Source: Lineus longissimus | Taxonomy: Eukaryota | Length of the DNA stretch: 64,000 nt | Reading direction: 5' to 3' | Assembly: GCF_910592395.1 (NCBI RefSeq) | Contig: NC_088309.1 | Location: forward strand, 22,833,923-22,897,922 | In this document: positions 6,956 through 64,000 of the stretch, piece after piece | Position numbering within the stretch: the first letter of the stretch is position 1 | Layout of the letters: each line of letters starts with the position of its first letter | The notes under the pieces: generated by a model | The model's input: the letters and a program-made list of their open reading frames with translations, nothing else | The model's database searches: none | What the model was told of the DNA's origin: nothing | Made by a program: the position numbers and the translations under genes

Positions 6956-7555
6956 GTAAGTGGATGATGCTGATTGTAACTTCCTGGTACCACACACTTC
7001 GGAGTACTTGAATATGTTGAATGGAAAAATTGCATATCATAATTAGCATGTTAACTGGTTCACCCTCTTTTCTCGACAAGGATGATTCTGGTTACAATGT
7101 AGTTCATTAGAAGAGTCTATTCATGATAGTCAAGGGTGTAAAGGTTGAGATAAACATCCCACCCAAAACCTCATTTGATTTTCCAGAGTGTAAATTTCTT
7201 CTGTTACAGTTTGAGAATAGCTCGGGTAGTTTGAAAGTCATTCAGTGCTCTATTTCTTGTTCTTACCCTCTGTTTTCTCCTTTCAGGCATTGTAATATCA
7301 GTAAAGGTGCAAGCAGAGAAAAAACTGGCTCGTGAACGCTGTTCAAGGCAAGCGGTTGAACAGGAGTTGTCCAAGTTTAGGGAGTATTGTTCAGCACAGG
7401 AGAGAGAAATTGAGATTTTGCAAGGTCTTCTAAAAAAACATGGCATCGAGTTTCAAAAAATGGAAAAGCCAGTTGTGATCAACAAAATTGATGTGGTGGC
7501 AGAAGTCAATGAGTTTATTGAAAAAACAAACAATGAAAACTTTAGTAGTGCTTGA
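6439..7555 (+). CDS. HVCN1: voltage-gated proton channel Hv1 (HVCN1) ortholog, 2 coding exons (6439-6955, 7287-7555)
   Basis: Product is MDGFKNFKKLDDDLQRVIEKEE...HLKHLLHTNKFQISVVILVILDCIIVIAELLIDLK (S1)...ILHYISIAILSIFLVELGIKIYAFRLEFFKSKMEVFDGIVVVLSFALDIAF (S2-S3)...GLGLFIVLRLWRVTRILNG|IVISVKVQAEKKLARERCSRQAVEQELSKFREYCSAQEREIEILQGLLKKHGIEFQ...*. The S4 motif RLWRVxRIxNG with three Arg and the C-terminal coiled coil are diagnostic of Hv1. Donor AATG|gtaagt at 6956 and acceptor tttctcctttcag|GC at 7286, phase 1. Confidence 0.88.
7287..7555 (+). CDS. HVCN1: HVCN1 terminal coding exon (coiled-coil, stop TGA)
   Basis: In frame with track ORF 7307-7555. The split Gly codon G|GC joins S4 to IVISVK. 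Confidence 0.85.
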
Positions 7556-20787: not shown

Positions 20788-23700
20788 GTAAGTGATTTTT
20801 CCTTTATTTCACCCTTGTGTCTCCTCTTCTAGTTTTTATATTAGCAAAGGTGAGGACCGTCTTGTCAGAGTAAGGACTTTTCCAACCGTCACAAAGATAC
20901 ACAAGGGCATGACTCTTATTCATCCTGACGCTTGAAGGGTTGAAATTAATAACGTTCTGATGTGCTTATTTCCGCACACCAGAAGTGAGCAATCATTTTG
21001 TGAATGTTAACCCTTCAAGCTTCAGGCTCAAGCTCAGTTGAGCTAACACTGATGCTTGTCTCTAATGTCATTTGAGCGACTGGGCCATGTAATATTATCA
21101 TAATTGTATTTTCTCTACAGTAATGTCCTATTTGTCAAGCTTCCTCATGTTTTTCTCTGGCATTGTCTATTATATTTCAGTTGAGTCCTGAATCCGACCC
21201 TGCTGACTTTGAAGGTACAAGTCTTGCCTGGGTCTTCAAGAAGGGAGCCAAAAATGAAGAAGTTGAATTGATCTTCACGACCAAGGATGATAAGATTCCA
21301 GAGAAGAATGAAACGTTTATTCTGGAGCTTCTTGTGATCAAGGGGCCAAGTAATGCCTTGGTTGGTGACCCATCGAAGGCTACTGTCATCATCTTGGCTA
21401 ATGATGATGCATTTGGTGTCATTGGCTTTGCAGATGTAAGTCAGTTTTGTTGCTTGATATTCAACACTTACATTAACATCTTATCAAATTCTGTTCTGGT
21501 CTTATTTACTGGGTCGTTGTATCAATGCTACTTTAGAAAATCTTTAGGAATTGGGTTCCAAAGGGTTAAATACATGATGAGCTTGATGGAGATATATTAG
21601 CTTGTTAGTTATATGGCTAAAAAAGTTTAGGCTTTTAGTATGTTTCAGTATAATCTAATCTCAAGTTAAATCCTAGAGCTACACTACATGATCAGGACAT
21701 CCCATAGTATTTTACTTGCATCCATTTTAAATTCACTGACTAAAATGACTGTATTGAGTATTTATAAATGAAACGTTTTATCGATGTCCCACTGGCTTAC
21801 CCAAGGTTTTCAGTAAGTCAGTGTCAACAGTTCTTTTGGCTTCATGCAGAGATTGTTTTTGTGGCTTGATGTCCCATATTCCAAGTAATATTCAACGCTA
21901 TTGATTTCTTCAGCCGTCAGCCAAATCTGTAGAAGAACTGATTGGTAAAGCAAATCCTGTGAGTTTGACTGTCAAGAGAACACAGGGATTGTTTGGATCA
22001 GCCAGAGTCGCATTTCAGGTAACCTTGGTCTTTGAAGATGTGTACGATGTTTCTCAAGTAATTCAAAGACAGAGAAATCTATTCACAAATATTAAGCTTC
22101 CGTTGAAGTAAAGGAAAACAGTAAACCTACAATGAAATATGCTGTTCTGTTTCCATGATTTTCCAGTTCAGGTTTCAGATCTTGAGAAAAAAATGACAAG
22201 ATAAACCAACTAATTGTGTCAACAGGGTGTCCAACGAAGTAGCAGAGATAGTCTTAACTCCGCTCCCGGGCGTAACAGTCAGCTTCCAAGCAGAGCTTAT
22301 CATCTAGCCTCAGGGTTATAGTTTCAACTCCACTCGTAAAAACATGTGGTTTTCTCCATCATGTTCAAGGATATTGTGTATGGTATATTTGACCTGCAGT
22401 ATTGTCGATGTCAACAATAAATATTTCTCAGCTTTACTATGCAGAAGTGACAAATGCACATGATCATAATCAATTGACTTTCTTTCAGACATCTTGGAAT
22501 AATGGAACATTGAGCGGTCCATCTGACATCAGTCCAACAGCTGGTGAGATCATCTTCGGAGAAAACCAGGCGTCTGCTATACTCACCTTCAGTATCCTAC
22601 CAGATGAGGTAAAGTGCTAAAACATCGCATGTGATTTTGAATAAATTTTACGCCATGACTATAGCTATTCCATTCTCATGGCAAGTTCCTGCGGTGGAAC
22701 AATAATGATAAAGGTCGCAGGAGTTGGCCCAGATGAATCTGCTCAGCTGACATGGGGTTGCTCTAAGTCTGCAACCCTTAGACCTTTTGTTATCACTCAC
22801 CTAATTGTTACAAAACTTGTTGCAAGATTGATTTGAGGAGAACCTCTTGATGATAAACCAAATAGTAAACCAGAAATGGCTACAAATACATCTCGCCAAG
22901 TTCGCCAACCTCAGTGGTTGGAGGAACCAAACTTGGGTGTGGTTGGCATTGGAATAATAACTATGAAACTCTTGAATGGATATTAACTGTTTTTTTGGTT
23001 GTTCCCAAAACTTGAACTTGTCAGACCTGGGGTACGCCCATCTGACTGTATACAAGAAACTACTACAGTTTATACTATGTGTGCATGAAGTGCTACAAAC
23101 TCTAGCAGACAGTGAAATAATCAATGCCCACAACCATAACTAGCCTATTAATGTCGGTAACGGTTTATGAAATGTTGATGGAGTTTCCTCTACTGGGACA
23201 TGAACTGATTATTTGATAGAAATGCCTTTTGCTCTTTAATAGTTTAAACTGGTTGCAGCAAAATATTTCAATCGTTTGAAGCCTATTGTTTCTTGTGGTG
23301 TTGACAAATCAGTAAAATAAGAGCTTTTAGAGATTTAGAACCCCATTGAGAAAGCACAGTAATAAAGGTTTAAATGGTGGTAAATCACTGATTTCATTTT
23401 TTCGGACATTTTCTCACCATGTATTATCTCAATAGGTTCCAGAAGAAAATGAAGTGTATCAGGTGACTCTATCCCTGAAGTCAGTTGGGCCTACCCTCAA
23501 CACCGCGAGTTCAGTGGTCGAGATTATCATTGTGAAGAATGATGCACCAGTCAGGTTTGCTAAGGTAGGTTTCCAGATAAAATTGTCCGGTCATCTTAAT
23601 CCTGATATATCAGTTTCCCAGATTGTTGATTGATTGTTGTGTGAAGGGAAAAGTAGGCCTTTCATCTAGCTGCCATACCCTGCCATCTGTTCACATATCG

Positions 23701-26700
23701 TATTAAAGAAAGGTCCAAGAAAGAAGATATTTAGCCTGGAGGAGATGGGGCTAATCTGAATCTGGGTGGACATCACCCAAAAGTTAATAAGTCTGTAAAG
23801 GAACAATATTTGCATGTAAGTCCCTTTTGTGTTTTTGACAGATAGAGTCATTATTCCAGTAGGCTTGAACTTGAAATAATCGCCTTTATACTATTTTCTG
23901 GAGACAACGCGATGATCTTTTGATCAACTGTAGATCATCTGATTCTGTTCGATCAATGGGACTTGCATATTCTTGTATTCTTTTGAAATGAGGCTGTTAT
24001 GTTTGGACTGATCGCGTAATGCCTACATCATCCCTAATTCCTTCTTTCAGTCCCAATTCATTGTTGATGAACTGAACAGCCAGAAGACCTTACAGATTCC
24101 AATATACAGAGGAATGTCTGCAGATGGGAGTGCTCCAGTTGGACCGGCGGACAAACTTGCATCAGTAAACTACTTCCTTGTGTCAAACTCGGCAAAATAT
24201 CAACAGGATTTCCTCGGAAGTAACGGGACAATACGCTTTGATCCAAAGATTCGCACGGACTCCATAACAATCTATATCCAGCCTGATACGATTCCTGAAT
24301 ATTTTGAGAAATTCACCGTAGTTCTAGCAAATCCTGTTGGCAATATTGTCCTCGCCGAACCAAAAGTTGCTGAAGTTGTTATTAATCCGAATGATGATCA
24401 CAATGGAATCTTGGAAGTGAAATCTAAATCAGGTGCTGTTCGTCCCAGCATAAAGGTCAATGAAGATACTACAGTCTCTACAGCAGATTTGTCTGTAGTT
24501 CGGCGTGGTGGTTCTTTCGGGGTCATCTCTGTGAAATGGGAAATCACACAAGATTCGGGAAAACCGGTTGCTGATCTGACCCCTACTTCTGGAACGATCG
24601 AATTCAAGGAAAAAGAAACAGAAAAGCCGATCACAATTTTGATTGTACAGGATACTGCGCCAGAAGTTGTTGAAACGTTTAAAGTGACTTTAGTTAATGG
24701 TTCAGTCACTGGTGGAGCTAGGCTTGGTGAGGTTACTACTGGGAGTTTGACGATTGAGGATAGCGATGATGCCTACGGTGCTTTTGGGTTTGCAAGTGGA
24801 GATCAACAGAAGCTGGAGAGTGTAAGTGTGAAAAATATGTGTTGCACTGACAATGTCACAACCTTGAATCAAGTGAGTGAAGAGCTGGCAGATCAGTTCT
24901 TCAGACACATACAATCATTTGAGATAAGTCATCAAATGGATTTACAATAAGGAACATCATGGGGCGGGTTTTTGCACCAATGATTTTCAAGGATAGGCCT
25001 TTTATTACTTTTAGTGTGTTCGAATGTGGTTTCCCTTTGAAGTCTTTGATCTCATCTTACTTTATCTGACCTCCATGTTTCAGTCTGTCGTGCCCCGACA
25101 TATCCAGCTGACGATTACCCGATCTGGCGGCACCATCGGCCAAGTCCAGCTCAACTATACCATTGTTTACGTAACTAATGGGACCATTTACAAGGACGCA
25201 TTAGAACAAGGAAGCACAGGCTCTGTTGTGTTCGGGGAAGCTGAGCAGAAGAAGATACTGAAGCTGATTATCAAAGCGTCAACGTTCCTCAACGTTGGGG
25301 CGTATTTCCAGGCAACGCTTGACGGCGTTGACCTCACAGACAAAGGTATTGTCCACTTCAGTAGTCCTCGCATCGGCAGTGAGTCGACGATGCTCCTGAA
25401 CGTGACAGCTGAGAATGCTGATGGTGAGATTGGATTTACACAATCTGGAGATGTCCTTGCAGAGGAATTACCAGATAAGGCTCAGTTGGTAAGTTTGATT
25501 TCCATTCAGGCTTGGATCCAAGGAGAACAATCCCAAACCTGTCCTAAAAACCAAGACGTCTTTATATATGTATTGCTAATACAGTTGTAACTATGAGAAC
25601 GATTTCATTGCACTTCAGGTTCGCTTGGGTTTGAGTCGTGAGGGTACCAATGGTGATGCCACAGTATCCTGGAGTATGAAAGCATCTGGGCCGAATGCTT
25701 CTCTTGTTACTACAGGGGACATCAAGCCTTGGAGTGGCCAGGTCAGCTTCACATCAGGTACGTCATTAAGTCTAGATTGATTCTCTGTTTGCAGTGTTGA
25801 ACATTGTGTTTTGACACAGGTGATAATCAAAGTGATGTACGTCTATTAAGGAATGACTTCCAAGCATTTCTTTGTGTATTTCAGGCCAGAAAGAGGCTTT
25901 CATCGACCTGCTCGTCCAGCCAGACACAATCCCAGAAATTGATGAGCAACTCATGATCACATTGGAAAAGGTTGAACCGTCACCAAAACAGAAACTCCGC
26001 TCCGGTGCTACAGAGCGTAAGATTGTCATCAAGGAGAATGACAACCCTGGTGGAACGTTTGAATTCTCGGCTCAAATGTCAGGCAACTATGTCCTCAAGG
26101 TTTGTTGATATCAATTCTTTGCCAAAGACTTCAAAGGTACATGTATGTCTAGATGGCTATCTTTATGGGAGATTCAAAGAAAAGTGGTAGGCATTTAATA
26201 GGATGCAATGAGCACTAAGCTTCAACTGGGACATTATACTATCCAAGCTGGCTGCACAGAATTGAGCTATTTTAAGACAAATTGACAACCATGATACCAC
26301 TGTGTCACAGCTTCGATACTATCAGCAATGTTGAAGAAAGAGATGTCGTCATCCAATTTCAGGAAGGAGGTAATCCAATCTATGTGAATGTGACACGATC
26401 AGGAGGTGCCCTTGTGCAGAGGTCAGTTCTTTATTCAATCAGTCCAAACGGAGCATCACAGTTCTATGGCGCTCAGGATGTCATGGTGTTCAACCAGGGG
26501 GACAAGTTCAAGACGGGAACCATCCTCACCATTGATGACAACATACCTGAGGTAAGTTGATTGTGATGCCTGGCTTCAAGGATAGATTGGTCTAATGGTT
26601 AAGGTGTGGGATTTCTAATCTAAGGGTCATTGGTTTGATACCCAATATGAATACAGCGCTTGTGGCCTCAAGAAAGCCTCTTTACTAATGTGTCCTTTGA

Positions 26701-40889: not shown

Positions 40890-42419
40890 TGGAAAAAAAT
40901 TGCGAATGGTATTGAGAAGTATATCAAAATCTCCTGAAAGGGTGCCTCTGGAGGCCAATGACTACTAGGCGTTAATTGTCAGAACAGGAGGCTAGGGTGA
41001 TGTGGATGAGCTGGAACCAAGTTTAGAGAACTGCCCAGGACTGGAGAAAAGGGAGAAATCTTGTTGGCGACCTATGTTCCACTTGGAGTAACAGGGTTAA
41101 AATCTTCTGATGTTCAGAGAAACATTTCAGTTCCAAAATCAACCACGAGGTGGTACTAGGTCTAAATGATTGTCTGACTGTTGATGTTCAAGCCACACCC
41201 ATTCCAAATTCTTGGCACTAATGTCATTAGCCAAGGTATAGTAGATCTATTAGGGAGCCATCCGAAAGTCGAATGTAGATCTACGTCCCTACGACATTTT
41301 CTTATACCTCTTGGTCTTGAACATCAGTGAAATCAATTTTAATATTCAAAACATTGTTATGCCTATTCAGAGAAGCAGAAAGATGAGACTGAGTTGTAAA
41401 AAACTTTATCTGCAAAATAAATCACATTTCCTGCTCCGAGGCACAATTATAACTTCAATTCAAATTCTGGATGTATCTACTGATATAACTCGGTGGTTTA
41501 TCAGGAATTGTCATAGCTTCAGGTCGTGTTATAAAAACCTGATAGTTTTTTACTTTGATATAGTTTTGCTTTGCTTTTTGATCAGATTTCAGCTCGGCTC
41601 AAATTTTGGTTAAAGCCTCACTTTCATATGAAATTCCTTTTCACGTTACTTCAAATAAAAAATTGATTTGTTTGATTTTGTAAACTTTTAGTTTGCCATC
41701 TTTGGTCATGTGTTGCCGTCCAATTTGGCATCTATGCATGTCATCAATGTGTTTTTGATGTCATCTATACTGCTGGTGGGGATAACAAAAAGTATGTGAA
41801 ATTCTAACTTACTCATTTTCTGCTTGATAAGGAGATTCACCAGGTAGTGTTCTTTGTTCGTTTCCATCACGACAAGATTGGCTCCAAGTGCAGCGCAGTA
41901 GTCTCGTGCCTGCTGCCAGGTGGCGTTGAAGTTTGAAAACAGATAGCATGTTTCCCAACCGTCGATTCCAGTAAATAACGTCGGACATTTGTTGGATTCG
42001 CCACGTTCGTTACAGAGAATAGAACGCTCGGAAATTATTCGTTGATCATTGAGGCCACCTTGAGAACCACCTTGAGCTTCTGCATCAAGGCGTACTAAAC
42101 GGCGATCCATCCCTGTTTTTGTCAACTCCTGCATCTTTGTTTCGATCCGCCGGACGCCTCGTAATGTTCTGATTGACAGTGCCTCCATTTGGCGGGTCAG
42201 CCGTGCCTCTAATGCATCCAAGGTCGTCAGAGGTTTCTTCCCGTGGACCTCCTCATCTATTGTGAGGTGATTTGCAAAACATTTTGAAACTTTCATCATG
42301 ATTTCGTCATAAGTGCACTTCCCCCTTGGACCACAGGCTCTCATTGTTATGTTCCTAGACTCAGTTGTCATGGCGACAGCACAGATTATCGTTACCGTTA
42401 ACACAAACTTGTAATCCAT
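40651..42419 (-). CDS. C-type lectin domain protein (signal anchor/peptide + coiled-coil neck + CTLD), 2 coding exons: 41813-42419 and 40651-40889 (alternative acceptor giving 40651-40934)
   Basis: Exon 1 encodes MDYKFVLTVTIICAVAMTTESRNIT... with a coiled-coil segment (LDALEARLTRQMEALSIRTLRGVRRIETKMQELTKTGMDRRLVRLDAEAQ), then the start of the CTLD (CPTLFTGIDGWETCYLFSNFNATWQQARDYCAALGANLVVMETNKEHYLVNLLIKQKM). Donor ATGA|gtaagt. Exon 2 encodes the rest of the CTLD (...ANGTAWWTAGNYQVQSNTWMWATQ...WKNGTPKSETTKCMLLPGDNAHTWISDVCTEPYNFICETSKIMKMK*), including the WIGL-like, W-W-DG-like and C...FICE motifs. The exact exon-2 acceptor is ambiguous between two phase-1 AGs. Confidence 0.7.
41813..42419 (-). 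CDS. C-type lectin exon 1
   Basis: Falls within track ORF 41706-42419(-). The tail of that track ORF (EFHILFV...) is intronic read-through past the gtaagt donor. Confidence 0.65.
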
Positions 42420-49200: not shown

Positions 49201-51699
49201 CGATAAGTTTGGAAGAATACTAACAGTCACATTGTCAGTTGGCAAGGAATGTTGAAAATACATGGATTTGAAAATCAAAATTACCAACAAGCTTGCACCC
49301 GGTTGGAAGGTAAATGTTCAAATAATGTATCACTGGTTGATATGATAGAATTATGCCATAGCCTGAAACGGGAGGTCCTTTGTTGATGCGGCTTGGCATC
49401 CAGGACATGGGGCCATAAGTCCAATACCAAGTGCTGTAATTTCAGCCTGTCGATAATGTTGATTGTAATAGAAATGAAATGAAATCTGCGTATTGTATCA
49501 AAACTTTACCTACCTAGAAGACCCTTATTACCAGAGATTGCAGCTCCAAACCTACAGCTGAACTGCATGGTATCAGGAAAACCGGTGAAGAAATTTGGAC
49601 ACCAAAAGCATCACTCAAAATTTCCTTTTATAAGATAATGAAATATTTCCAATCGTGTTTATTGATCATCACTTTTTCTGTGGCAGAGGCATTAATTAGA
49701 TTAAAAAAGTGGATTTAAGATTGTTAATTGAATAAATGATGTTGCACATGCATGTGCCATATGAGGTGAGTGACACAGGGGTGGGCTAAGAGACCATTAA
49801 ACTATTATTGTGGACAAACTCTTACCCTTTGACTCTCTGAATGAGAGGACATTGTGAGGCCGCATTCAGTTTATAGTTCTTTATTGTATATATGTTGGGT
49901 TTAAACGAATGAATATAAATTTTGGGAAGAAATGGAAATTTTGAGTGTTTCAAACATGGTGGCCAAATTACAATCATAATGACTATAGTTTGAAATGGGA
50001 CAGCCAGGTGGCAGGACACATTAAAAATAGGGAGTTCAAGAGATAGGTCAACAATTATTGGTACCACACATCATTTCTCATAAACTTCAAATACTAACTT
50101 GAATAACTGCCTTTCTATTCTCTGGAGCTACCAGTAATAAAGTATGCCGTTCCCTTTAAAATTAACATTACCAAAGAATGCACAATTAACTCTCTAAATT
50201 TTCAATCAAGAACTTAACTTTCAAAGTTTGCTTATCATAACATGAATGAACAGGATTGAAATTTTCTGAATCTTATTGAAGGAAAATGGTTAAGCGGTGT
50301 AAGGAATTTCGTACTTGGGCCACCGCCGAAACAATTGTCATAACTTCGCCTATCCTGTTTTAGCCATCTTAGAAGAAATGCTGCATGGACATTGCCACAT
50401 TTCCAAAACACAGAACAGAAAAGAGAATTCAAACTCCAACGTATCACTTCATATCTTCTTTTGATGAGATAGTGTAATATTCCCAGCCATGTTTATTGAT
50501 TACAAAGTTATGCATAAGCTATCATATGGAAGTTTGTACCAGCACGGCTGTGAAACAATTATCTGAACTACCTAGCTGTAGCTGTAACACCATCAAAGAA
50601 GAAGGATGTTCAAAACTAAAGAACAGATAAGAGAAACTCCAGCTCTAAGTGATTTCTTAAAATTTTCCTTCAATAAGATAGAGTACTATTCCAGCCATGT
50701 TTTATTGATTGATTCGTGGTGTATCTAATAAACATTGGTGAACACATAAAAATCACCTACCTTGTTACATCCCAGTATGTCCAGCATGATATTTATCACA
50801 TCAAGCTCTGTCATCAACTGTCGATGAAACTTCTCGTGTTAAATCCTCGGTACCCCGACAGCTATAGGTCACATGACTGGCACGCTGTGTCGTGTGGGTG
50901 TTCGGTCGCTGGTTTGATTGGATTGATGCCAGAGAGATGATACTAACTCGGCTGGTGGTATCTTTGTGTGACTTCAGTTAAACTGTTGGAAACGTTGATG
51001 ATGCGTTTGAAGTAGTTTAATTGGTTTTGATAGGGATTGGTGTAATGGTTTCAGTATGGAACTTATGATGCTAGAGTTGTGGGTTCACCTCTGTTGGTTC
51101 TTTTACTCTCTTCGTTGAGACACTTTATACCACGTTCTCTTTTAGAAATAACTTCAATTCTAGACAAGCTTTGCTCAATGAAGCATCTTAGTCCTTTGCA
51201 AATTCAATCAGACAGTTTAACTTTAGAAATTTGGCTTTTATTTGCTGATATTTTAATAACTTAGTTCGAGCTTATGTATGTAAAGGATGTTGCTTTTGAT
51301 AACAACTGTAATGGCGCAAGTGGATCTTTTTTCCAAATGTTAAGGAGAGATGTTAAGAACTTTAAAAACTTTGTTGCAGTTCAATAAGGTATAAAAAAGG
51401 CCATTTTGATCAGCGACGGCAAGCGACGAAAACCCAATAAATGCCATTGTAAGTACAAATAAACCAAGTGGTGACCTCCTTAATTTCAACAGTCACTTGG
51501 TCTCACTGGGATAAATTGATTCCTTGTCAGTTCTTATTTGTTTGCAATTTATCACAATGTCTGTTTACCGGAGGTTGGTACGAGACATTGTCTTTATAGA
51601 ATTCTCTCGAGAACTAGTTGGATCCCAAGTTTGATTAGAGGATGTTTTACAGTCCAAATCACAATAGTCATCCCAAATTCACTTCATTCGCACGTCATT

Positions 51700-52030
51700 G
51701 ACGCACGACCCAGTGCGTAGGTCATGCGTAAGTCGAGCATAGGTCGTGCGTAATTTACGCGAAACGAAGGGAGATAAGCATGTCATTGGCGCGCAACTTG
51801 GTGCTTAACTCGCATATACATGTACGTTGTGCATCAATGATGCCAAGCAGGACGGAGGTCAATTGTGATTTGGACGCGAGTTGCGTGCCGAGCACGTTAA
51901 TGATGCATCAGTGACGCGGGATCTCTATGTTTCGCGTGACGCGGGATCTCTATGTTTCGCGTGTATTATGTCCGACCTGGGCAGCGGCACGCCACCGACG
52001 ACCCAATGACGCAATTTACAGGATGTCAAT
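51700..52030. promoter_or_regulatory. isolated CpG-rich island with internal direct repeats (GTGACGCGGGATCTCTATGTTTCGC x2; CAATTGTGATTTKGAC x2)
   Basis: Dense CG content (gcgtaggtcatgcgtaagtcgagcataggtcgtgcgtaatttacgcgaaacg...gacgcgagttgcgtgccgagcacg...) sits in a CpG-poor region. The function is unknown; it could be a promoter or a TE remnant. Confidence 0.2.
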
Positions 52031-54540
52031 TGTGATTTTGACTGTATAAATGTCATGTCTGTTAATTGCTAGACAGGTACTGGGTTTGTGATGTATCTGT
52101 TGTGCAGCTGAGGATACTTTAAAGGCATATGACTTATGAGATCGTCCCTCTATGTGTCAGTTTAGCACCTCCGGGCTGATTGAGGAGGCAATAAGAGAAT
52201 GTAGTAAATGTTGTTTACACAGATCAATATATGATATTTGTTATTGACAAGGAAATCTATCATGTTTCCACTCACGTTGAGTGCACACAAGTGTTCATGA
52301 TCTACATGGTTGTGTGTGTTGAATAATTGATCTTGTTAGAGTGGAAATTGCACCTCTATACGTATTAAATCATTAGTGTAAAGGTATTAGGACTATCATT
52401 AAAAGAGGAGGTTGAATACATATTTACTGTCAATATGTCACTTGTACTGAGTAACTTCACCATCAAATTCCCAGTGCGGGATAATCCAACTTAGTGCACT
52501 TATGCTATCTCTGCTAATGAGTTCAGAATATATTTAATTGTCGCTGCATCTGAATTAGTTGTTAATGAGTTCAGACTGTTGTTGTTGGATAATAACTATC
52601 CATATTATTTAGAATAATAAAGATAAATTTGTTAATACAATTAGAGTTTTGTTGTTGAGATGAAGTCTTCTTAAACATTAGAGAGATTGTATCAAGATTT
52701 GATGGAGACTTCATTCTTGCTGTTGTATATATCAAAAGAAGGTTGTCTGTAGCTGATGTGAAATTGGAGTCCAGCTTCTAATGATTCAGTTTCGATTATA
52801 CCCCCAACTTGACCTGATCAAGGTCAAAGTCTATCTTTTTATCACCGATGAGGCAAATAAGTCTTGTGAAAACTCTGGCCGCATTTCTGTTCATTGCCTA
52901 TGGTAGACTTACCTCCCTCATTAAGATTTTCTGGGGATGCGGTTTTCTGAGTTGATGCTATTGTTCATCAGTAAATGACTGATTTCTTCATGAAAACAAT
53001 GTATAAAGAGATCATCTCTTTGTTCTCGTAAGCTTAGTTTTGTTTCCATTGCCATTATTGTTTTATGATAATTTCATCCAGGGTAACTTTTATCGTTTTC
53101 CTTCTTTGCTAATATCTTTCTTTGTTCTTTCCATTACATTGTCGGAACTCTTTTTTTGCCTAGAACTGATAAAAGAAGGATGCTCCCAATTTCCTAAATG
53201 CAGTTCTGGTCAAAGGGATTGTGCCTTGTCGTATGCAACATATAACGCTCCGGTCAGAAGTAATGTAAGAAGTCCAAATGTCTAGAAAAGTTCCCCTTTG
53301 TACAGTTCTGGTCAAAGTAATGTACAATTGGCATGCAACAGATACAGTTTTGGTCAAAGTCTCTCTTGTCGCATGCACGTTTTGCACAAGCAAGTTTTAC
53401 ATGCTGCCACCTGGAAGTCTCGTTTATTTGCTACTGAAAGATTTGAAATGAATGAGATAGCACTCATTTGCATTTAGCGTGCTGATTTGCACCAACCAGG
53501 ATTATGTGTTCACCCCCACGCAACAGATTAACGTCGCATTTTAAAATCTTTACTTATTGATATTCTGCTGCTGAAATCTGCTCACGGACCATTTAGTACC
53601 CAGCGGTGTGTAGGTTAGTCATGAGCCATCAATCCTACATTAAAATCATTAAGGTTTATCTAACTTAACCACGTATCCCTGCGTATTGATTGTGGAATAC
53701 TTTAAGTGTCATCGCTAACTGGTATGCTTGGCTGCATCAATTCACTCCCACAATGCAAAAACTATTGGGTAAACACTAAAACAGGTTTAGCACACTCTTA
53801 AATTCAATTTAGATATGAAAATTGAGGTGTTGTTGTTAGTAGCTGCGAAGAAGTTGGTCAATTTCTCTATGTCCTCATTTAAGGTTTCAGGCATGTCTAT
53901 CAAGTGGCCCAATTGATCAATTAGTTTTCTCAGTTATTTTGTCTCAATATTGTCCACCGAAATGTTTCAATGAGGCATCCTATTGTCAAAGAGTTGTTTT
54001 GATGGACTCTTTAATCATTATATCTTTTTTGGTTTGCTGATCAATGATCAATGAAATTATCGATCAGAAGCATGGTATATAACCCGAAGACAGAGTTAAA
54101 GAAACTCACTACACTTGGGGTGGTATTGGTTTTGACAAGTCATTTGACGTGACAAAAAACCTCTCAGCAGAAAACAGAAATCTTTAAGGTCATGAACCAA
54201 TCTAGCTTTCTTCTTGGTTTGCTTCTACCACCTTATTAAATGCCAAGTGCTGTCATAATGTCAAGACTCAGGTCGTAGTATGAGGGCTGACATCAGGCAG
54301 GAAGCGACCAGGCACAAGATCGAACAAATTGCCTTATTCGCCTCGTTTCATTTAATTCTCACGCCACTTGAACAACAAACTTCGTAGTGTTGTCTTTGGT
54401 GGGAGTTTTATATCTTGACCTTTTATTGTTCAGCACATAAAGGTAGCAATGGCACTTGATAACATGAAAATGCATGATGGTCATCGATTATTACCACTGG
54501 TTGGTTTAATCCCCGGTTTGATCATCACTATCATCTTCAG

Positions 54541-55465
54541 TACCATCATCATAAGCCTATTGGACTTCGTCAAAGGTATGGAGTCCACTGTAGGCTACTG
54601 CTGACCTATGTGGGATCTTTTACTTGCCCTGGCATAGACACTCAGATACAAGTACCATCATAAGCCTATTGGATTTTGGTCAAAGGTATGGAGTTTACTG
54701 TAGGCTACTGTTGACCTATGTGGGATCTTTTACTTGCCCTGGCATAGACACTCAGATACAAGTACTATCGTAAGCCTATTGGATTTCGTCAAAGGTATGG
54801 AGTCCACTGTAGGCTACTGTTGACCTATGTGGGATCTTTTACTTGCCCTGGCATAGACACTCAGATACAAGTACCATCGTAAGCCTATTGGATTTCGTCA
54901 AAGGTATGGAGTCCACTGTAGGCTACTGTTGACCTATGTGGGATCTTTTACTTGCCCTGGCATAGACACTCAGATACAAGTACCATCGTAAGCCTATTGG
55001 ATTTTGGTCGAAGGTATGGAGTCCACTGTAGGCTACTGTTGACCTATGTGGGATCTTTTACTTGCCCTGGCATAGACACTCAGATACAAGTACCATCATA
55101 ACCCTGTTGGATTTTGGTCGAAGGTATGGAGTCCACTGTAGGCTACTGTTGACCTATGTGGGATCTTTTACTTGCCCTGGCATAGACACTCAGACACAAG
55201 TACCATCGTAAGCCTATTGGATTTCGTCAAAGGTATGGAGTCCACTTGACCTATGTGGGATCTTTTACTTGCCCTGGCATAGACACTCAGACACAAGTAC
55301 CATCGTAAGCCTATTGGATTTTCGTCAAAGGTATGGAGTCCACTGTAGGCTACTGTTGACCTATGTGGGATCTTTTACTTGCCCTGGCATAGACACTCAG
55401 ATACAAGTACCATCATAACCCTCTTGGATTTTGGTCAAAGGTATGTCATCCACCGTAGGCTAATC
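54541..55465. repeat. 118-bp minisatellite, about 8 tandem copies
   Basis: The unit is taccatcataagcctattggatttcgtcaaaggtatggagtccactgtaggctactgttgacctatgtgggatcttttacttgccctggcatagacactcagatacaag. One copy carries an 11-bp deletion, and there are a few SNP-level variants. Confidence 0.9.
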
Positions 55466-55499: not shown

Positions 55500-55815
55500 G
55501 AGATGTGTATATAAGTCATCTCGGGGTGAGATCGGTATATTATCATGTCAAGATCTCGGGTTGAGATTGGTAATATCTCAGGTTGAGGTGGGTATGTCAT
55601 TCTCAGGTTAAGATCTATAATATCTCAGGTTGAGATGGGTATATCTGTTATATCTCCAGTTGAGATGGGTCCCAGGTCGAGATCTGTGATATCTCAGGTT
55701 GAGATGGGTTTATTCTCAGGTCAAGACCTATGATATCTCATGTTGAAATGGGTATATTCTCAGGTCAAGATCTAGTATAATATCTCAGGTTGAGGGTATA
55801 TTCTTAGGTCAATAA
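55500..55815. repeat. ~42-bp minisatellite (atctcaggttgagatgggtatattctcaggtcaagatct), about 7-8 copies
   Basis: Alternating tcaggttgagatgggt and tcaggtcaagatct half-units lie directly downstream of the 118-bp array. Confidence 0.85.
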
Positions 55816-59172: not shown

Positions 59173-59634
59173 TAAGTTTACAATACAAATTATCAAAAAA
59201 TAAGGCCTACGATGACAATACATAAAAACCGCCGTCATGTCACTTGACGACGGACATGACGGCACCGGGAGCACGGCTGGGATGTGCTGGATCGCCAACA
59301 TCCTCCTCCCTCTTGGATGCTTCACCATGCTGAAAAGAAAGGGAATAACATGAAATTCAGGTTGTAAGTGCAGTCATGCTCCAGTTGATTAAAATGCCAC
59401 ATGTATGCTTGTGACAGACAGATCAACACGACCAAGTACTGTGCAAGAGTGAGATATCTGTAGGTGACAAAGCGATATCTAATTCTCTTATGACAACCAT
59501 GGTCAGATTAGTGTTCCATGGTGTTTTTAAGTCGCACAAGCTCGTGAAAGATCACAAAAACCATGCCCAAAGATGACTGAAATCAACTTAGACTTGCTGC
59601 CTCTTTGCTAACAGTAATGAAACGGCCAGGGCCA

Positions 59635-59905
59635 ACGTGCTCACCGTGTAGATATTTGATTGTTAGGAATTCATCCTGGTTAAGAAACATGCTACATGTA
59701 TAGTATATAGGTCAAACCAAAGTTAGTACATGTATAACATTTGATGCATCGTCGCTTGGAGCACCTAACATCAAAATATCATCGAAAACAAGTAACTAAT
59801 AAGCAACATTTAGCACTTTTCACCTTTTTTAGTTTGGGCCTTCTGGTGGCCAGGTGGAGGATATGATCGGATATCGAAATTCGGTGTCTGAGGTTACATG
59901 ACATA
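59635..59905. repeat. segmental duplicate of 62650-62930 (satellite unit plus flank), left partner
   Basis: caccgtgtagatatttgattgttaggaattcatcctggttaagaaacatgctacatgtatagtatataggtcaaaccaaagt... is shared with 62660-62760, and the subsequent unit sequence is also shared. Confidence 0.7.
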
Positions 59906-60587
59906 AGCCGCGTTCACACTGGGGGTTTATACTGAATCGAAACCGGAATAAGGCGCTATTCAACTTCGGTGCGTCACACTTGATTCGGTATAAATTACCT
60001 TTATACCGCTCTAGCGAAACCAGGATTTGTATCGACATCGATGCGCTACAACCAAAGCGATACAGCTAAGCCGCAATATAATTACAGTGTGACCTCTTTA
60101 TTAGTTTATTCCGCAACAAGGTGGATGACTCATCAAGCCGCGCAGGCGCAGTAGCTAATGTCACCTCTATTTCCGTTTTAGCGTATGGAGAAAACGTGTT
60201 GAAAATTTTGTCATTTCTACCACTTACTTTGAAGTATTTAGGCCCTAATTTGGTGTAATGGCGGCGAGAGGTGAAACTTGGGGTATTCCAGAGAGGCTGC
60301 TGCTCCTGCAGATCTGGCGTGATGAGGATGTTGAGGGCCAACTGACTGGTGTGCACCACAACACACCAGTTTACGATCAGGTGAATGAATGACCTTCACC
60401 CTGCAGGGCAGTTTTCTTATCTAACGTATAGGTGGCGTATGTCTATTGCGGATTGAGTGTGACGCGGTTTGTTTCGCATCGATGTCGGTTTCAAGTGCAG
60501 TGTGACCCGAACCAATACAGTGAAATTGGTTTCGGTATTTCGGAATAGGGAAGTCGGCATGAATGCGAAACAAGTGTGAACGCAGCT
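59906..60587 (+). mobile_element. Harbinger/PIF-like DNA transposon (non-autonomous or deleted): 14-bp TIRs AGCCGCGTTCACAC / GTGTGAACGCAGCT, 3-bp TSD ATA, internal Myb/SANT-like (Harbinger DNA-binding protein) ORF fragment at 60259-60390
   Basis: The element interrupts a satellite unit. Flanks read gacATA|agccgcg...cgcagct|ATAgggagtc, whereas intact units read gac(a/g)tagggagtc. There are additional subterminal inverted repeats (ggtgcgtcacacttgattcgg / ccgaaccaa..cagtgtgac). The internal + ORF is MAARGETWGIPERLLLLQIWRDEDVEGQLTGVHHNTPVYDQV followed by a gtgaat donor. This matches the W--ET--LI--W------L-G--RN--VY consensus of MADF/Myb-SANT-like proteins encoded by Harbinger elements. Confidence 0.6.
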
Positions 60588-60594
60588 ATAGGGA

Positions 60595-63460
60595 GTCATG
60601 TGTAACACATTTCAAGTTCACAGCTTTAGCATTTAAGAAACGTGCCATAGTTACACTCAAACGGCCAATTTACGCCATTTGACCTATGTCACCTTGAAAA
60701 TTAGGTAAAATCAAAAACCAGCAGGAAAATATGATGTATCCTTGCAAGGAGAACCTACCATGAAATATCATTGAAACCAAGTCACTAACAAGCGCCATAT
60801 TGCACTTTCTTCTTATAGTTTTGGCCCCCTGGTGGCCAAGTCGAGATTCAGATCAGACCGAAACTCGGTGTCAGTGGTTATATGGCGTAGGGAGTCATGC
60901 CCACCAAATTTCTAGTTCATTGCTTCCAATGGCTAATTTATACAATTTGACCTCTGTGACCTTGAAAATTAAGTCAAATCAAAAACCCGTATATATGTGA
61001 TGTATCTCTGCTAGGAGAAGCTACCATAAAAATTTAATCAAAAACGAGTCACTCATAAGAGAGATATCACACTTCTTAGATTTTCACTTCTGGGGCTTTG
61101 GTGGTCAGAATCAGATCGGACCGAAATTTAGTCTCCGAGGTCATTTGACCTAGGGGTACATAGGTACACGATTTCAAGTCAGTAACACCAGGGGTGAGTA
61201 AAAATGCTGCTATTACCTAACGGTGACGCTGATACCGAACTTGACCTCTGTGACCTTGAAGAGTTGGTCAAATCAAAAACCTGGGTTATATTTCAAACAC
61301 CCTTATAAGATGCATCTACGGTAAAATGTTCATGATTCTAGCTAGCAGCATTCATACGATATAGCCAAAAATATGTTTTCAAAGAGCGCCACCTATATGG
61401 CAGACAAGCAGTCAAATTGCGCTTATTTTCATTATGAAAAAAGGTCTTGCCTAGGGGTTGGCCGTCACAGCAAGTATGAACCTTCTAGGTCAAGTGGTTT
61501 CCACTTCTGGCCCCCTGGTGGTCAAGAATCAGATCGGACTGAAATTTAGTCTCCGAGGTCATTTGACCTAGGGGTACATAGCTGCACGATTTCAAGTCAG
61601 TAACACCAGGGGTGAAAAAACATGCTGCTAGTACCTAACCGCGATGCCGATACTTAACTTTGACCTCTGTGACCTTGAAGAGTTGGTCAAATCAAAAACC
61701 TGGGTTATATTTCAAACACCCTTATAAGATGCATCTACGGTAAAATTTTCATGATTCTAGCTAGCAGCGTTCATACGATATAGCCAAAAGTATGTTTTCA
61801 AAGAGCGCCACCTATCTGGCAGACAAGCAGTCAAATTGCACTTATTTTTTTCATTTTGAAAAAAGGTCTTGCCTAGGGGTTGGCCAACACAACAAGTATG
61901 AACCTTCTAGGTCAAGTGTTTATGAAACATGGCACTCTTTTGTCAATAGTTAACGACAAACGACGACATCGACGGATGACGACAATGGCGGACGACGACG
62001 ACGACGGACGACGGACGCCACGGTATCGTAAAAGCTTCCCTGAACAGTGAGCTAAAAATGATGCAGCGAAGGTGAAGTTGTTGACCATGTTTTTAGAGAT
62101 CATGAAAAGACACTGTAGAGTTTGGGCAAACTGCTCTCAGTTCGGGGACGGAGTGAGCTACCCACTTCCGATACCCAATGCCGATATTGGGCGCATGAAG
62201 ATCCCGATTAAAATGCAAACCCAACTGACAATACTCTATTAAGACTAATCTTTGGTAAAGATCTTGGGTAAAGGGCTTCATTTAAACTACCAGGAAGCTG
62301 ATGTCCTGAGCAACATGAGGAGTTCTTGATAGCCCATGCCTTGGTTGCCTCTGCAAATACCTCAAATATTGACAGCAGTATGATAGAACACTTTGAGAAA
62401 GACCAGGTCATGCAATTTCATTAATTTCCCTCCCAAAATCGCTCCAGAATTCCAAAACTAAAGCCCAACAAGATATACTTTATCAATTTCGACTCTCAGG
62501 AGAAGTCTTGTTATCTAACTGTAATTATATCTCAAATATAACATTGGGAAATTGTTTTATAATCGAAGAGCCCCTTGTACAGTGTTTATGTTCATGATCT
62601 CTAAATCAGGCCAATGTCTTCACCAGAGTAAGGACATTTAAAAATGAAGTGGCAAGGGGCCTTTGTGGTCACCGTATAAATATTTGGTGGATAGGAATTC
62701 ATCCTGGTTAAGAAACATGCTACATGTATAGTATATAGGTCAAACCAAAGTCGGTATGACGACATGTGATGTATCCTTGATTGGAGTACCTTCCATAAAA
62801 ATATCATTGAAAACAAGTCCCCAATGAGAGAGATATCGCACTTTTGTACCTCCTGGTGGGCAAGTCGTGAATCAGATTCAATGTCAGAGGTTATATGACG
62901 TAGGGAGTCATGTGTACCAAATTTAAAGTTCATAGCTTTAGCGGTAAGGAACGTGCCACAATAATTACACTCAAATGGCCACTTTACGCCATTTCACCTC
63001 CGTGACCTTGAAAACATGGTCAAATCAAAAACCTGTATGATATGTGATGTATCATTGCTAGGAGAACCTACCATAAAAATGTTATCGAAACGTGTCACTC
63101 ATAAGAGAGATATCACACTTTTTAGGTTTCCACTTCTGGCCCCTGGTGGCCAACTCAAGATTCGGATCAGACCGAAATTCGGTATCAGAGGTAACATGAC
63201 ATATAGGGAGTCAGTCATGTGTACCAAATCTCAAGCTAATAGCTTCAGCGGTTAAGAAACGCGCCATAGTTACAATCAAACGGCCAATTTATGCCATTTG
63301 ACCTCAGTGACCTTGAAAATCAGGTCAAATCAAAAACCTGTGGGATATGTGATGTATCCTTGCTAGGAGTACCTACCATAAAAATATCATCAAAATTTAT
63401 TATCAGAGGTCACCTGGCCTGAGGGGTCCTGTGTACAAAGTTCACAGCTCTAGCGGTTAA
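60595..63460. repeat. satellite-like array: ~270-bp units (each containing TTCTGGCCCCTGGTGGCCAAG...CAAATCAAAAACC...GCTAGGAGAACCTACCATAAAAAT) plus a ~410-bp higher-order unit duplicated at 61085-61495 / 61495-61925
   Basis: Unit copies start near 60600, 60790, 61070, 62690, 62990 and 63260. The 61085-61925 interval is a near-perfect direct duplication of about 415 bp. The interval 61925-62650 is unique sequence with a (GACGRC)n motif. Confidence 0.75.
61935..62060 (+). repeat. (GACGRC)n-...GGACGCCACGGTAT...GTGAGCTAAAAAT motif block; inverted partner at 63880-64000 and partial direct copy at 63470-63560
   Basis: The reverse complement of 63880-64000 reads ...gacgacggacgacggacgccacggtatgggataagctcacctctgctaagaggtgagctaaaaat. 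A 9-bp-stem hairpin gctcacctc/gaggtgagc is present at 63886-63909. Confidence 0.55.
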
Positions 63461-64000
63461 GTAACGTGGCACTGTTTTTAAAACAGGATACAGACGATCA
63501 CGACGATGACGGACAACGGACACAGAGGTGTTGTATAGACTCCTCTACGGTGAGCCAAAAACAAAAACTAATTCGGTTGTATTACCATGCAGTGGCATCC
63601 TTTTGCCTTGTCATAAGTGGAGCTTTCCCCGAGTCCTCAAAAGATTGTCATTAAAGTCTTTCAGAGCGACTGACGATCCTTTAGGTCATTAGAGTCTTTC
63701 AGAGTGACTGACGATCCTTTAGGTGTCCACTTCACATGTGCAGCAAACACGTTCCTTTTCTGAGAAGGTTCTGCATGCCTTAATTGGTCTGGCAAAGGCA
63801 TCGTCTCTGGACATCGGGGAGTCTCTACTGCAACATAAAAATCAAATATCATTAATTTGCTGTTGCGGTGTTTATACTATTTTTAGCTCACCTCTTAGCA
63901 GAGGTGAGCTTATCCCATACCGTGGCGTCCGTCGTCCGTCGTCGTTGTCGTTGTCGTCGTCGTCCGTCGTCCGTTAGCAGGGCACGTTTCGTAACTGTTA

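What the first reader, a model, noticed from the sequence alone, without database searches (positions are those of the whole stretch)
59890..60600. Harbinger/PIF-like element with a Myb/SANT (MADF-type) ORF fragment, 14-bp TIRs and a 3-bp ATA TSD, inserted in a satellite unit
The satellite unit consensus gacATAgggagtc is split into gacATA + [agccgcgttcacac ... gtgtgaacgcagct] + ATAgggagtc. That gives perfect 14-bp TIRs and a 3-bp TSD, the size typical of PIF/Harbinger. Inside, a plus-strand ORF MAARGETWGIPERLLLLQIWRDEDVEGQLTGVHHNTPVYDQV, ending at a GT donor, matches the N-terminus of Harbinger-associated Myb-like DNA-binding proteins. No transposase ORF is present, so this is a deleted or non-autonomous copy.
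Basis: partly seen in the sequence, partly recalled or inferred. Interest (0 to 1): 0.6.

Follow-up and report, generated by a model that had tools for sequence, protein, structure and literature searches.

The report
Decayed Harbinger-type transposon copy
This is an ordinary dead copy of a small cut-and-paste DNA transposon, most likely of the PIF/Harbinger kind. It kept both ends and the first 42 codons of its DNA-binding (Myb/trihelix) gene, and it sits inside a repeat unit of what is probably a ribbon-worm (Lineus) genome.

Summary
The insertion is real: window 59906-60587 (682 bp), flanked by ATA on both sides.

- **TIRs:** they are 13/14 (14/15), not perfect.
- **ORF end:** the 44-aa ORF does not end at a splice donor. 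It ends where about 250-260 bp of the gene were deleted, then runs into the family's own stop codon.
- **Domain:** it is Myb_DNA-bind_4 (trihelix, GT-1-like), not MADF.

Supporting evidence:
- **Other copies:** copies with the same termini exist in metagenome contigs (L001, 88% identical, perfect TAA duplication; also L127 and L002). Each has a different lesion in the ORF.
- **Likely host:** the first 42 residues are identical to Lineus longissimus XP_064642788.1 (254 aa, Myb_DNA-bind_4 at 50 bits).
- **Target site:** flanks show a 3-bp duplication within a C|WWA|G target.
- **Internal motif:** the 7-mer TCACACT occurs six times in 682 bp (0.08 expected), pointing inward from both ends.

These features, with a roughly 15-bp TIR starting with A, fit the PIF/Harbinger (PHIS) superfamily; the target resembles its NuwaII group.

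No DDE transposase could be linked to these ends, so superfamily membership remains inferred. The finding is a new member of a known kind, of low interest. One mild curiosity: several diverged sister families share the same ~1-kb "Myb-only" layout.

The parts
59903..59905 (.). left copy of the 3-bp target-site duplication (ATA), preceded by C at 59902
   Evidence: the empty site reconstructed with one ATA is collinear with paralogous units
59906..60587 (+). the whole transposon copy (682 bp), an internally deleted member of a ~0.94-kb non-autonomous family
   Evidence: 88%/85% identity to L001:26-944 and 87%/91% to L127:1084-2006, with the same termini
59906..59920 (+). left terminal inverted repeat AGCCGCGTTCACACT
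   Evidence: I5: 15 nt, 93% complementary; identical in L001 and L127
59914..59920 (+). TCACACT motif copy 1 (inside the left TIR)
59974..59980 (+). TCACACT motif copy 2 (GCGTCACACT), 60 bp inside the left end. The same spacing is seen in L001, L127, L129 and L005.
60086..60092 (-). TCACACT motif copy 3 (GGTCACACT on the minus strand)
60140..60199 (+). promoter-like block (GCGCAGGCGCA ... TTTCCGTTTTAGCGTATGGAGAAAACGTG), ~60-120 bp upstream of the ATG. It is conserved in all eight related elements, including families with only 36% protein identity.
   Evidence: its role as a promoter is inferred
60258..60392 (+). remnant ORF of 44 aa: residues 1-42 of the Myb/SANT-like (trihelix) protein, plus NE and the stop
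   Evidence: 42/42 identical to the N-terminus of XP_064642788.1. Pfam Myb_DNA-bind_4 gives only 13.4 bits on the fragment alone, but 50.4 bits on the full-length relative.
60383..60384 (+). internal deletion breakpoint. About 250-260 bp are missing (234 bp = 78 codons relative to L001; 249 bp relative to L127).
   Evidence: alignment A4, columns 522-785
60456..60462 (-). TCACACT motif copy 4 (CGCGTCACACT on the minus strand)
60499..60505 (-). TCACACT motif copy 5 (GGGTCACACT on the minus strand)
60573..60587 (-). right terminal inverted repeat (minus strand AGCTGCGTTCACACT), which contains motif copy 6
60588..60590 (.). right copy of the target-site duplication (ATA), followed by G at 60591
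59740..60890 (+). the interrupted host repeat unit (59740-59905 plus 60588-60890), one of ~6-7 degenerate ~300-bp tandem units spanning 59740-63500

Best explanation
Window 59906-60587 is a dead, internally deleted copy of a small non-autonomous cut-and-paste DNA transposon. It most likely belongs to the PIF/Harbinger (PHIS) superfamily and sits in a genome that is probably a nemertean (Lineus).

**What is shown**
- The family's undeleted short form is about 0.94 kb. It consists of 15-bp TIRs, inward-pointing subterminal TCACACT-containing repeats, a conserved promoter-like block, and one ORF of about 130 codons for a Myb/SANT-like (trihelix, Myb_DNA-bind_4) DNA-binding protein. It has no transposase gene.
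- This copy inserted into the sequence C|ATA|G of a ~300-bp tandem repeat unit and duplicated ATA.
- It later lost about 250-260 bp from inside the ORF. Only 42 codons remain, fused to the last two codons and the stop.
- Other copies carry different, independent lesions, as expected of neutrally decaying transposon copies.

**What is inferred**
- By analogy with Harbinger3_DR, the Myb-like protein of intact relatives would bind the repeated subterminal motif. It would then recruit a DDE transposase made elsewhere in the genome, which would cut at the TIRs and reinsert with a 3-bp staggered cut.
- This copy can no longer make the protein. It keeps both TIRs and all six motif copies, so it could at most be moved passively.
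For: **Copies elsewhere**
- The same termini and internal sequence occur in L001 (26-944; 88%/85% identical), L127 and L002.

**Target-site duplication**
- ATA/ATA here and a perfect TAA/TAA in L001.
- In L129, from a sister family, the flanks are CAA/AAA (one mismatch).
- C lies 4 nt outside the left end in 5 of 6 sites. G lies 4 nt outside the right end in 4 of 4 sites.
- The empty site is supported by paralogous repeat units.

**Internal motif**
- TCACACT occurs 6 times in 682 bp against 0.08 expected. None of 20,000 shuffles reached 6.
- Motif positions are conserved across families.
- The rest of the window holds 8 copies in 63 kb.

**ORF homology**
- 37 relatives at E<=1e-3.
- Myb_DNA-bind_4 scores 42-56 bits in the close relatives P0003, P0011, P0015 and P0019, and 50.4 bits in XP_064642788.1, whose first 42 aa are identical to the ORF.
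- The nearest PDB entry is the trihelix protein GT-1.

**Deletion, not intron**
- Alignment A4.

**Published hallmarks of the superfamily**
- Two genes (DDE transposase plus a Myb/SANT/trihelix protein), ~15-bp TIRs and 3-bp TSDs (PMC9710019).
- TWA target, with the first TIR base A or G. The NuwaII group has target C|TNA|G and a Myb/SANT ORF (PMC4482050).
- The Harbinger3_DR Myb-like protein binds a 9-bp subterminal motif (PMC9710019).
- DNA-binding-gene-only Harbinger derivatives mobilised in trans have been described in C. inopinata (bioRxiv 10.64898/2026.05.26.728016).
Against: - No DDE (DDE_Tnp_4) transposase was found in any related locus or in the window. This rests on Pfam annotations of called genes and a tblastn with a from-memory HARBI1 query. 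The defining enzyme is therefore unlinked.
- The duplicated triplet here is ATA, not the canonical TWA.
- The TIR begins AG, not the GG typical of NuwaII.
- Myb/SANT-like domains are not exclusive to Harbingers; for example, R4/Dong retrotransposons carry one (PMC7998251).
- The repeat unit whose left flank is most like this one (63204) reads gacaTAtaggg. That reading would also allow a 2-bp TA duplication with asymmetric ends.
- The metagenome contigs used for comparison are short and could be chimeric.
Confidence: 0.72

Rival explanations
1. It is a TIR transposon of a different superfamily that makes a 2-bp TA or AT duplication (Tc1/mariner or ISL2EU). On this reading the element is AGCC...GCAGC, inserted at gaca|TA|taggg.
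For: The uninterrupted unit at 63204 reads gacaTAtagggagtc, which is exactly left flank + TA + right flank. It also shares the acatgaca left context with the interrupted unit.
Against: - This reading makes the two ends unequal by one base.
- In L001 and L002, the two bases after ...AGC are TT and AT, not TA. The 3-bp reading gives TAA in both, and a perfect TAA/TAA pair in L001.
- The conserved C and G lie exactly 3 nt outside symmetric ends.
- Unit 63204 carries 6 extra bases relative to the other two units.
- Published ISL2EU elements target A|AT|T and carry THAP/YqaJ genes, not Myb (PMC4482050).
Confidence: 0.06
2. It is a TIR transposon with a 3-bp duplication from a non-PHIS or still undescribed superfamily (for example CMC/Chapaev, Zator or Academ) that happens to carry a trihelix gene.
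For: - No transposase has been linked to the ends.
- ATA is not TWA.
- Myb/SANT-like domains occur in other mobile elements (PMC7998251).
Against: The full combination fits PHIS groups as published and none of the others that I know of (my own knowledge). That combination is a ~15-bp TIR starting with A, an AT-rich 3-bp duplication including canonical TAA, a C...G target context like NuwaII, a separate Myb/SANT gene, and subterminal repeats.
Confidence: 0.15
3. The ORF is a piece of a host gene (LOC135497052 or a paralogue) and the inverted repeats are incidental; there is no mobile element.
For: - 42/42 identity to an NCBI-annotated Lineus longissimus protein.
- Relatives include multi-exon genes with proper splice sites.
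Against: - The insertion is bounded precisely where a repeat unit is interrupted, with a duplicated triplet.
- The whole 682 bp, non-coding ends included, recurs at other loci with different flanks.
- Every copy carries a different ORF lesion.
Confidence: 0.02
4. The ~1-kb "Myb-only" layout is a maintained, self-promoting design rather than deletion debris. In this design the DNA-binding subunit rides on its own small element and borrows a transposase. The window copy would be a decayed member of such a lineage.
For: - The same compact layout (TIRs, conserved promoter-like block, single Myb ORF) recurs in families with only 36-59% protein identity (L129, L005, L006).
- L129 has perfect 16-bp TIRs and an intact 140-aa ORF.
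- There is a precedent in C. inopinata.
Against: - The deletion junctions differ between families and copies. L129 versus its long relative L130 shows an independent truncation. Recurrent internal deletion that spares the gene nearest the left end therefore explains the pattern without selection.
- All four copies of the window's own family are broken.
Confidence: 0.2

Closest known systems
Canonical PIF/Harbinger elements (e.g. zebrafish Harbinger3_DR; rice Ping/Pong)
   Same: - Short TIRs (~15 bp) whose first base is A.
- 3-bp AT-rich target duplication (TAA in the sister copy L001).
- An element-borne Myb/SANT/trihelix gene.
- A repeated subterminal motif, like the 9-bp site bound by the Harbinger3_DR Myb-like protein (PMC9710019; PMC4482050).
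   Different: - No DDE transposase gene is present or linked.
- The triplet here is ATA, not TWA.
- The element is 0.68 kb (family short form ~0.94 kb), against ~4 kb for autonomous elements.
NuwaII group of the PHIS superfamily (PMC4482050)
   Same: - Target C|NNN|G with a 3-bp duplication: C at -4 in 5/6 left flanks and G at +4 in 4/4 right flanks.
- Autonomous NuwaII elements carry a Myb/SANT ORF beside the transposase.
   Different: - The published target is C|TNA|G with TIRs starting GG. Here the triplets are ATA, TAA and CAA/AAA, and the TIRs start AG or TG.
- Group membership is defined by transposase phylogeny, which I could not test.
MADF-only Harbinger derivatives (Harbinger-1M_cIno, Caenorhabditis inopinata; bioRxiv 10.64898/2026.05.26.728016)
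   Same: - TIR-bounded Harbinger derivatives that keep the DNA-binding-protein gene and lack the DDE gene.
- 3-bp duplication.
- Presumed mobilisation in trans.
   Different: - A different phylum.
- A different DNA-binding family (MADF there, Myb_DNA-bind_4/trihelix here).
- ~1.6 kb there against ~0.94 kb here.
- Activity was demonstrated there by a new insertion; nothing here shows activity.
Tourist-like MITEs (e.g. mPing)
   Same: Small internally deleted derivatives of PIF/Harbinger elements that keep the ends and depend on proteins supplied in trans (PMC2836001).
   Different: mPing-type MITEs are non-coding. This family's short form still carries a promoter-like block and a (formerly) complete small ORF.

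Membership tests
PIF/Harbinger (PHIS) superfamily | DDE transposase (Pfam DDE_Tnp_4 / PIF type) encoded by autonomous copies bounded by the same ends | tested here: inconclusive
   No such gene was found in the 682-bp copy, in 10 related loci up to 8.7 kb, or by tblastn with a from-memory HARBI1 query. The host genome itself could not be searched: look-ups of the Lineus proteins P0038 and P0040 found no contig on record.
PIF/Harbinger (PHIS) superfamily | a second, separate gene for a Myb/SANT/trihelix/MADF DNA-binding protein | tested here: met
   The ORF remnant is 42/42 identical to a 254-aa protein that scores 50.4 bits on Myb_DNA-bind_4 (cut-off 27). Sister copies encode the full domain.
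PIF/Harbinger (PHIS) superfamily | 3-bp target-site duplication, canonically TWA | tested here: met
   The length is met: ATA/ATA here and TAA/TAA in L001, with conserved C and G exactly 3 nt outside the ends, and the empty site is supported by paralogous units. The sequence TWA is met in L001 and L002 (TAA) but not in this copy (ATA).
PIF/Harbinger (PHIS) superfamily | short TIRs (most <60 bp, ~15 bp typical), first base usually A or G | tested here: met
   15-bp TIRs matching at 14/15 and starting with A; a perfect 16-bp TIR, AGGTGCGTTCACACTG, in sister family L129.
PIF/Harbinger (PHIS) superfamily | subterminal sites bound by the Myb-like protein | not testable with these tools
   Candidate sites exist: six inward-pointing TCACACT-containing repeats, with 0 of 20,000 shuffles reaching six. 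Binding would need an experiment.
NuwaII group (PHIS) | target C|TNA|G; TIRs beginning GG | tested here: inconclusive
   The C...G context is met (5/6 and 4/4). The central TNA is met in L001/L002 but not here (ATA). TIRs begin AG or TG, not GG. The group is defined by transposase phylogeny, which was unavailable.
Pfam Myb_DNA-bind_4 (PF13837) | score at or above the gathering threshold (27 bits) | tested here: not met
   The window ORF alone scores 13.4 bits, E=0.1, aligned to profile positions 3-40 of 89, because it is only the first ~40% of the domain. Relatives P0003, P0011, P0015, P0019, P0038 and P0044 pass with 42-56 bits; P0002, the closest (86% identical), scores 22.8, below threshold.
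Pfam MADF_DNA_bdg (PF10545) | score at or above the gathering threshold (22 bits) | tested here: not met
   No hit for the ORF. The full-length relatives score 16.9 and 14.0 bits, below threshold and far below their Myb_DNA-bind_4 scores.
Tc1/mariner | TA target-site duplication flanking symmetric TIRs | tested here: not met
   A TA reading requires asymmetric ends here and fails at the right flanks of L001 and L002.
Non-autonomous deletion derivative (MITE-like) | intact ends, no transposase, internal sequence collinear with longer relatives apart from deletions | tested here: met
   Alignment A4. The short form diverges from the long gene after ...IHNP. The L129/L130 pair shows the same relation in a sister family.

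The most novel reading that the evidence does not exclude
In this nemertean lineage the Harbinger DNA-binding subunit may travel on its own compact (~1 kb) elements. Each would carry a conserved internal promoter and arrays of its own binding motif, while the transposase is encoded elsewhere. This would be a persistently split two-component transposon that has diversified into several families. Some members are still intact (L129: perfect TIRs, uninterrupted 140-aa ORF). The window copy would be a decayed member of one such family.
Probability: 0.2. Interest if true: 0.45.

Novelty: new member of a known kind. Interest (0 to 1): 0.2.

Why it matters
For genome annotation, this is a clean example for curating a previously uncatalogued DNA-transposon family in a nemertean genome:
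- exact ends and a target-site rule (C|WWA|G with a 3-bp duplication);
- a candidate binding motif (TCACACT);
- a warning that NCBI gene models such as LOC135497052 are probably transposon genes.

Beyond that it is routine. The only wider point is modest. Several diverged sister families share a "DNA-binding-gene-only" layout. This echoes a recent report from Caenorhabditis inopinata. It could be used to ask whether splitting the two Harbinger functions across elements is a common evolutionary outcome.

Tried and rejected
**Searches that found nothing or had no power**
- The search for homologous proteins with the 44-aa ORF alone: no candidate shared enough 5-mers. The full HMMER scan then succeeded.
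- Protein-pattern scans with alignment A3: metagenome contigs gave 461 pattern matches, genome contigs 107 and viral contigs 120. None was confirmed. These collections evidently lack nemertean DNA.
- TIR pattern GCYGCGTTCACACTKG in metagenome contigs: 120 stretches, all single chance matches. BLAST of the element against them found nothing.
- Phage collection blastn: no match, as expected.
- Look-ups of the Lineus longissimus proteins P0038 and P0040: no contig on record, so the host genome context could not be fetched.
- A search for a protein ending in the conserved 3' peptide ...HSWAHPSWNE, hoped to be a transposase C-terminus: no hit at E<=10. The search had no power, because the positive controls P0002 and P0013 were not recovered either.
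- tblastn of a from-memory HARBI1 sequence against all related loci and the window: nothing. This is a weak test.
- tRNA and Rfam scans of 56-64 kb: nothing.

**Readings rejected**
- **Helitron:** the ends are not TC...CTRR and there is no insertion into AT.
- **piggyBac/Kolobok-type TTAA duplication:** I briefly entertained this after misreading L001's left flank as TTA. The flank is TAA (corrected).
- **CACTA:** the CACAC core lies 9 nt inside the ends.
- **MULE:** the ZSWIM-like fragment beside the Myb exon in L003 is a juxtaposition, and MULE duplications of 8-10 bp do not fit.


Full report
**1. What is in the sequence**

- Reading 59600-60900 shows gacATA|AGCCGCGTTCACACT ... AGTGTGAACGCAGCT|ATAgggagtc.
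- The repeat finder reports the arms 59906-59920 and 60573-60587 as 15 nt, 93% complementary (pair I5). They are not perfect.
- The C/T mismatch at position 4 is also present in the sister copies (left AGCC..., right AGCT...). It is a family trait, not damage to this copy.
- The inserted segment is 682 bp and has no second copy in the window.

**2. The host repeat and the empty site**

- The flanks belong to a ~270-305-bp tandemly repeated unit. About 6-7 degenerate copies (68-78% identity) lie between 59740 and 63500. An unrelated ~419-bp duplication sits in the middle.
- Three junctions are uninterrupted. They read ggcGTAgggagtc (60888), gacGTAgggagtc (62901) and gacATATAgggagtcAGTC (63204).
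- Joining the two flanks with a single ATA gives a unit exactly collinear with the first two. It differs from them only by G>A at a CpG.
It would equally allow a TA duplication.

**3. Other copies**

- A full HMMER scan of 1.84 billion proteins with the 44-aa ORF gave 37 hits at E<=1e-3.
- The contig encoding the best short hit is L001, from JGI metagenome 3300040954. It contains the whole element at 26-944, 88% and 85% identical over the two halves. It has the same termini and 234 additional bases exactly where the window ORF stops.
- L127 is a further copy at the same left flank with a truncated right end.
- L002, from an ENA assembly, is a 70-77% identical copy with the same right terminus.
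- In the four-way alignment (A4) each copy has its own lesion in the ORF:

| Copy | Lesion in the ORF |
|---|---|
| window | lacks columns 522-785 |
| L001 | lacks 30 bp |
| L127 | 2-bp insertion, premature stop and 11-bp deletion |
| L002 | different large deletion |

- This is the pattern of neutrally decaying transposon copies.

**4. The ORF**

- On its own the 44-aa peptide gives only Myb_DNA-bind_4 at E=0.1 and 13.4 bits, against a cut-off of 27. It aligns to profile positions 3-40 of 89.
- Its relatives P0003, P0011, P0015 and P0019 pass clearly with 42-56 bits; the closest, P0002, scores 22.8, below threshold.
- A profile search found XP_064642788.1, "uncharacterized protein LOC135497052" of Lineus longissimus (254 aa).
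  - Its first 42 residues are identical to the window ORF.
  - It scores 50.4 bits on Myb_DNA-bind_4, against 16.9 on MADF, which is below MADF's cut-off of 22.
- The nearest solved structure is the Arabidopsis trihelix protein GT-1.
- The domain call is therefore right in kind (Myb/SANT-like) but is trihelix/Myb_DNA-bind_4, not MADF.
- The identity to the Lineus protein suggests the window is from Lineus longissimus or a close relative. I did not verify this with a host gene.

**5. Not a splice donor**

- In L127, L002 and XP_064642788.1 the sequence after ...YDQV continues in frame as AARLNRNGYNRTGAQCRSKIKGLRAKW.... The GTG at 60381-60383 is therefore a valine codon.
- The window copy jumps from that codon to AAT GAA TGA, the last two codons and stop of the family's short-form ORF (...WNE*). 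The breakpoint is 60383/60384.
- Genuine donors exist in long relatives, but about 100 codons further downstream: L003 GCAG|gtaagt, L004 ACAG|gtacat, L130 CCCAG|gtaagt.

**6. Family architecture**

- The undeleted short form is about 0.94 kb. It has TIRs, a ~350-bp 5' region, an ORF of about 130 codons and a ~250-bp 3' region. There is no room for a transposase.
- The short-form ORF departs from the 254-aa protein after ...RPIHNP. The short form is therefore itself a deletion derivative of a longer element whose Myb gene has at least two exons.
- L130 shows such a long form for a sister family. It has exon 1, a ~1-kb intron and a second exon with a KRKRK/coiled-coil tail weakly similar to the C-terminus of XP_064642788.1.
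- Sister families share the compact layout:
  - L129 is 962 bp with perfect TIRs AGGTGCGTTCACACTG and an intact 140-aa ORF.
  - L005, L006 and L128 are further examples.
- All eight elements share a promoter-like block ~100 bp upstream of the ATG: GCGCATGCGCA, then about 20 nt, then CTTCCGTTTTAKCGTATGG. Its role as a promoter is my inference.

**7. Cis motifs**

- TCACACT occurs six times in the 682 bp, twice on the plus strand near the left end and four times on the minus strand (three near the right end, one about 180 bp inside the left end). Two of the six lie within the TIRs.
- The expectation is 0.08, and none of 20,000 shuffles reached six.
- The other 63 kb of the window hold eight copies, which is chance level.
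- The positions ~9 and ~69 from the left end recur in L001, L127, L129 and L005.
- In Harbinger3_DR, the Myb-like protein binds a 9-bp subterminal motif and brings in the transposase (PMC9710019). I infer the same logic here.

**8. Target site**

Aligning every terminus in register gives:

| Copy | Left flank | Right flank |
|---|---|---|
| window | C ATA\| | \|ATA G |
| L001 | T TAA\| | \|TAA G |
| L129 | C CAA\| | \|AAA G |
| L006 | C ATA\| | (not reached) |
| L130 | C TAT\| | (not reached) |
| L128 | C CAT\| | (not reached) |
| L002 | (not reached) | \|TAA G |

- Two of the three complete copies have perfect 3-bp duplications.
- C lies four bases outside the left end in 5 of 6 sites. G lies four bases outside the right end in 4 of 4 sites.
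- At ~20% base frequency this is unlikely by chance: roughly 0.002 for each side, by my arithmetic.
- A palindromic C|NNN|G target cut with a 3-nt stagger explains it. It also fixes the duplication length independently of the repeat-unit argument.
- I had first misread L001's left flank as TTA. One search corrects it to TAA.

**9. Comparison with known systems**

- Published hallmarks of PIF/Harbinger are:
  - two genes, a DDE transposase plus a Myb/SANT/trihelix/MADF protein;
  - short TIRs whose first base is usually A or G;
  - 3-bp TWA duplications.
- Within the wider PHIS superfamily, NuwaII elements target C|TNA|G and also carry a Myb/SANT ORF, but their TIRs start GG.
- The present family matches the superfamily on every structural hallmark I could test. 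It resembles NuwaII in target context, but not in the TIR start or, for this copy, in the central triplet.
- The defining transposase was not found in any reachable sequence. Membership is therefore inferred, at about 0.7.
- Harbinger derivatives that keep only the DNA-binding gene and move in trans have been described in C. inopinata. That layout therefore has precedent.

**10. Verdict**

- The finding is real and its main interpretation holds.
- Three details are wrong: the TIRs are not perfect, there is no GT donor, and the domain is not MADF.
- The superfamily label remains an inference from structure.
- It is a new member of a known kind and of low general interest.
- The recurrent "Myb-only" layout across diverged families is the one aspect that might repay a genome-wide look.

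Noticed in passing
window 51645-52049: A separate ~405-bp MITE-like element with 29-nt TIRs (86% complementary). Its ends read TA|CAGTCC...GACTG|TA, which looks Tc1/mariner-like. It contains an exact 25-bp x2 tandem repeat at 51911-51960.
   Followed up: partly
window 54547-55462 and 55553-55812: A 110-bp tandem repeat (8.5 copies, 92% matches), followed by arrays of 22/44-bp repeats. This is a better candidate for the name "satellite" than the ~300-bp units that host the transposon.
   Followed up: no
window 61107-61920: Two ~419-bp direct repeats (90-97% identical) lie inside the ~300-bp repeat array, so the array is itself a mosaic.
   Followed up: no
window 6361-7011 (+), 21163-25590 (+), 41706-42419 (-): Host exons: an Ion_trans segment that looks like a voltage-gated proton channel, several Calx-beta exons, and a C-type lectin fragment. 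They show that the window is ordinary eukaryotic gene space.
   Followed up: partly
L001 724-746, L127 1800-1822, L002 462-484, L005 6002-6024, L006 4350-4372 (deleted in the window copy except for its last bases, 60384-60395): The 23-nt block CATCCATCTTGGAATGAATGACC at the end of the short-form ORF matches with at most one mismatch in L001, L127, L002 and L006 (a 1-nt insertion in L005), between families that are otherwise under 70% alike. It is absent from L128 and L129. It carries stops in two frames. Its function is unknown; it could be a 3' processing signal or the last exon of an unseen gene.
   Followed up: partly
L128 1218-6296: An uninterrupted 1692-aa ORF lies next to a related element. 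It had no Pfam hit in my scan, although a precomputed PF25867 (DHD) hit is on record. It could be another mobile element or a host gene.
   Followed up: no
L003 2-199: A Myb exon lacking its first 12 codons directly abuts a ZSWIM1-3 RNaseH-like (MULE-derived) fragment (21 bits, below threshold). This is probably a mosaic of transposon debris or an assembly chimera.
   Followed up: partly
L130 ~3610-3846: The left end of a second, related family (GCTGTGGTCACACTAGCG...) begins right after exon 2 of the first element's Myb gene, which suggests a nested insertion. That family's homology extends at least 13 nt outside the TCACACT-proximal core, so its TIRs are longer.
   Followed up: no
L006 882-3633: Upstream of the related element, the contig carries a 583-aa ankyrin-repeat ORF and a 344-aa Mab-21 (cGAS-like nucleotidyltransferase) ORF, apparently intronless.
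   Followed up: no
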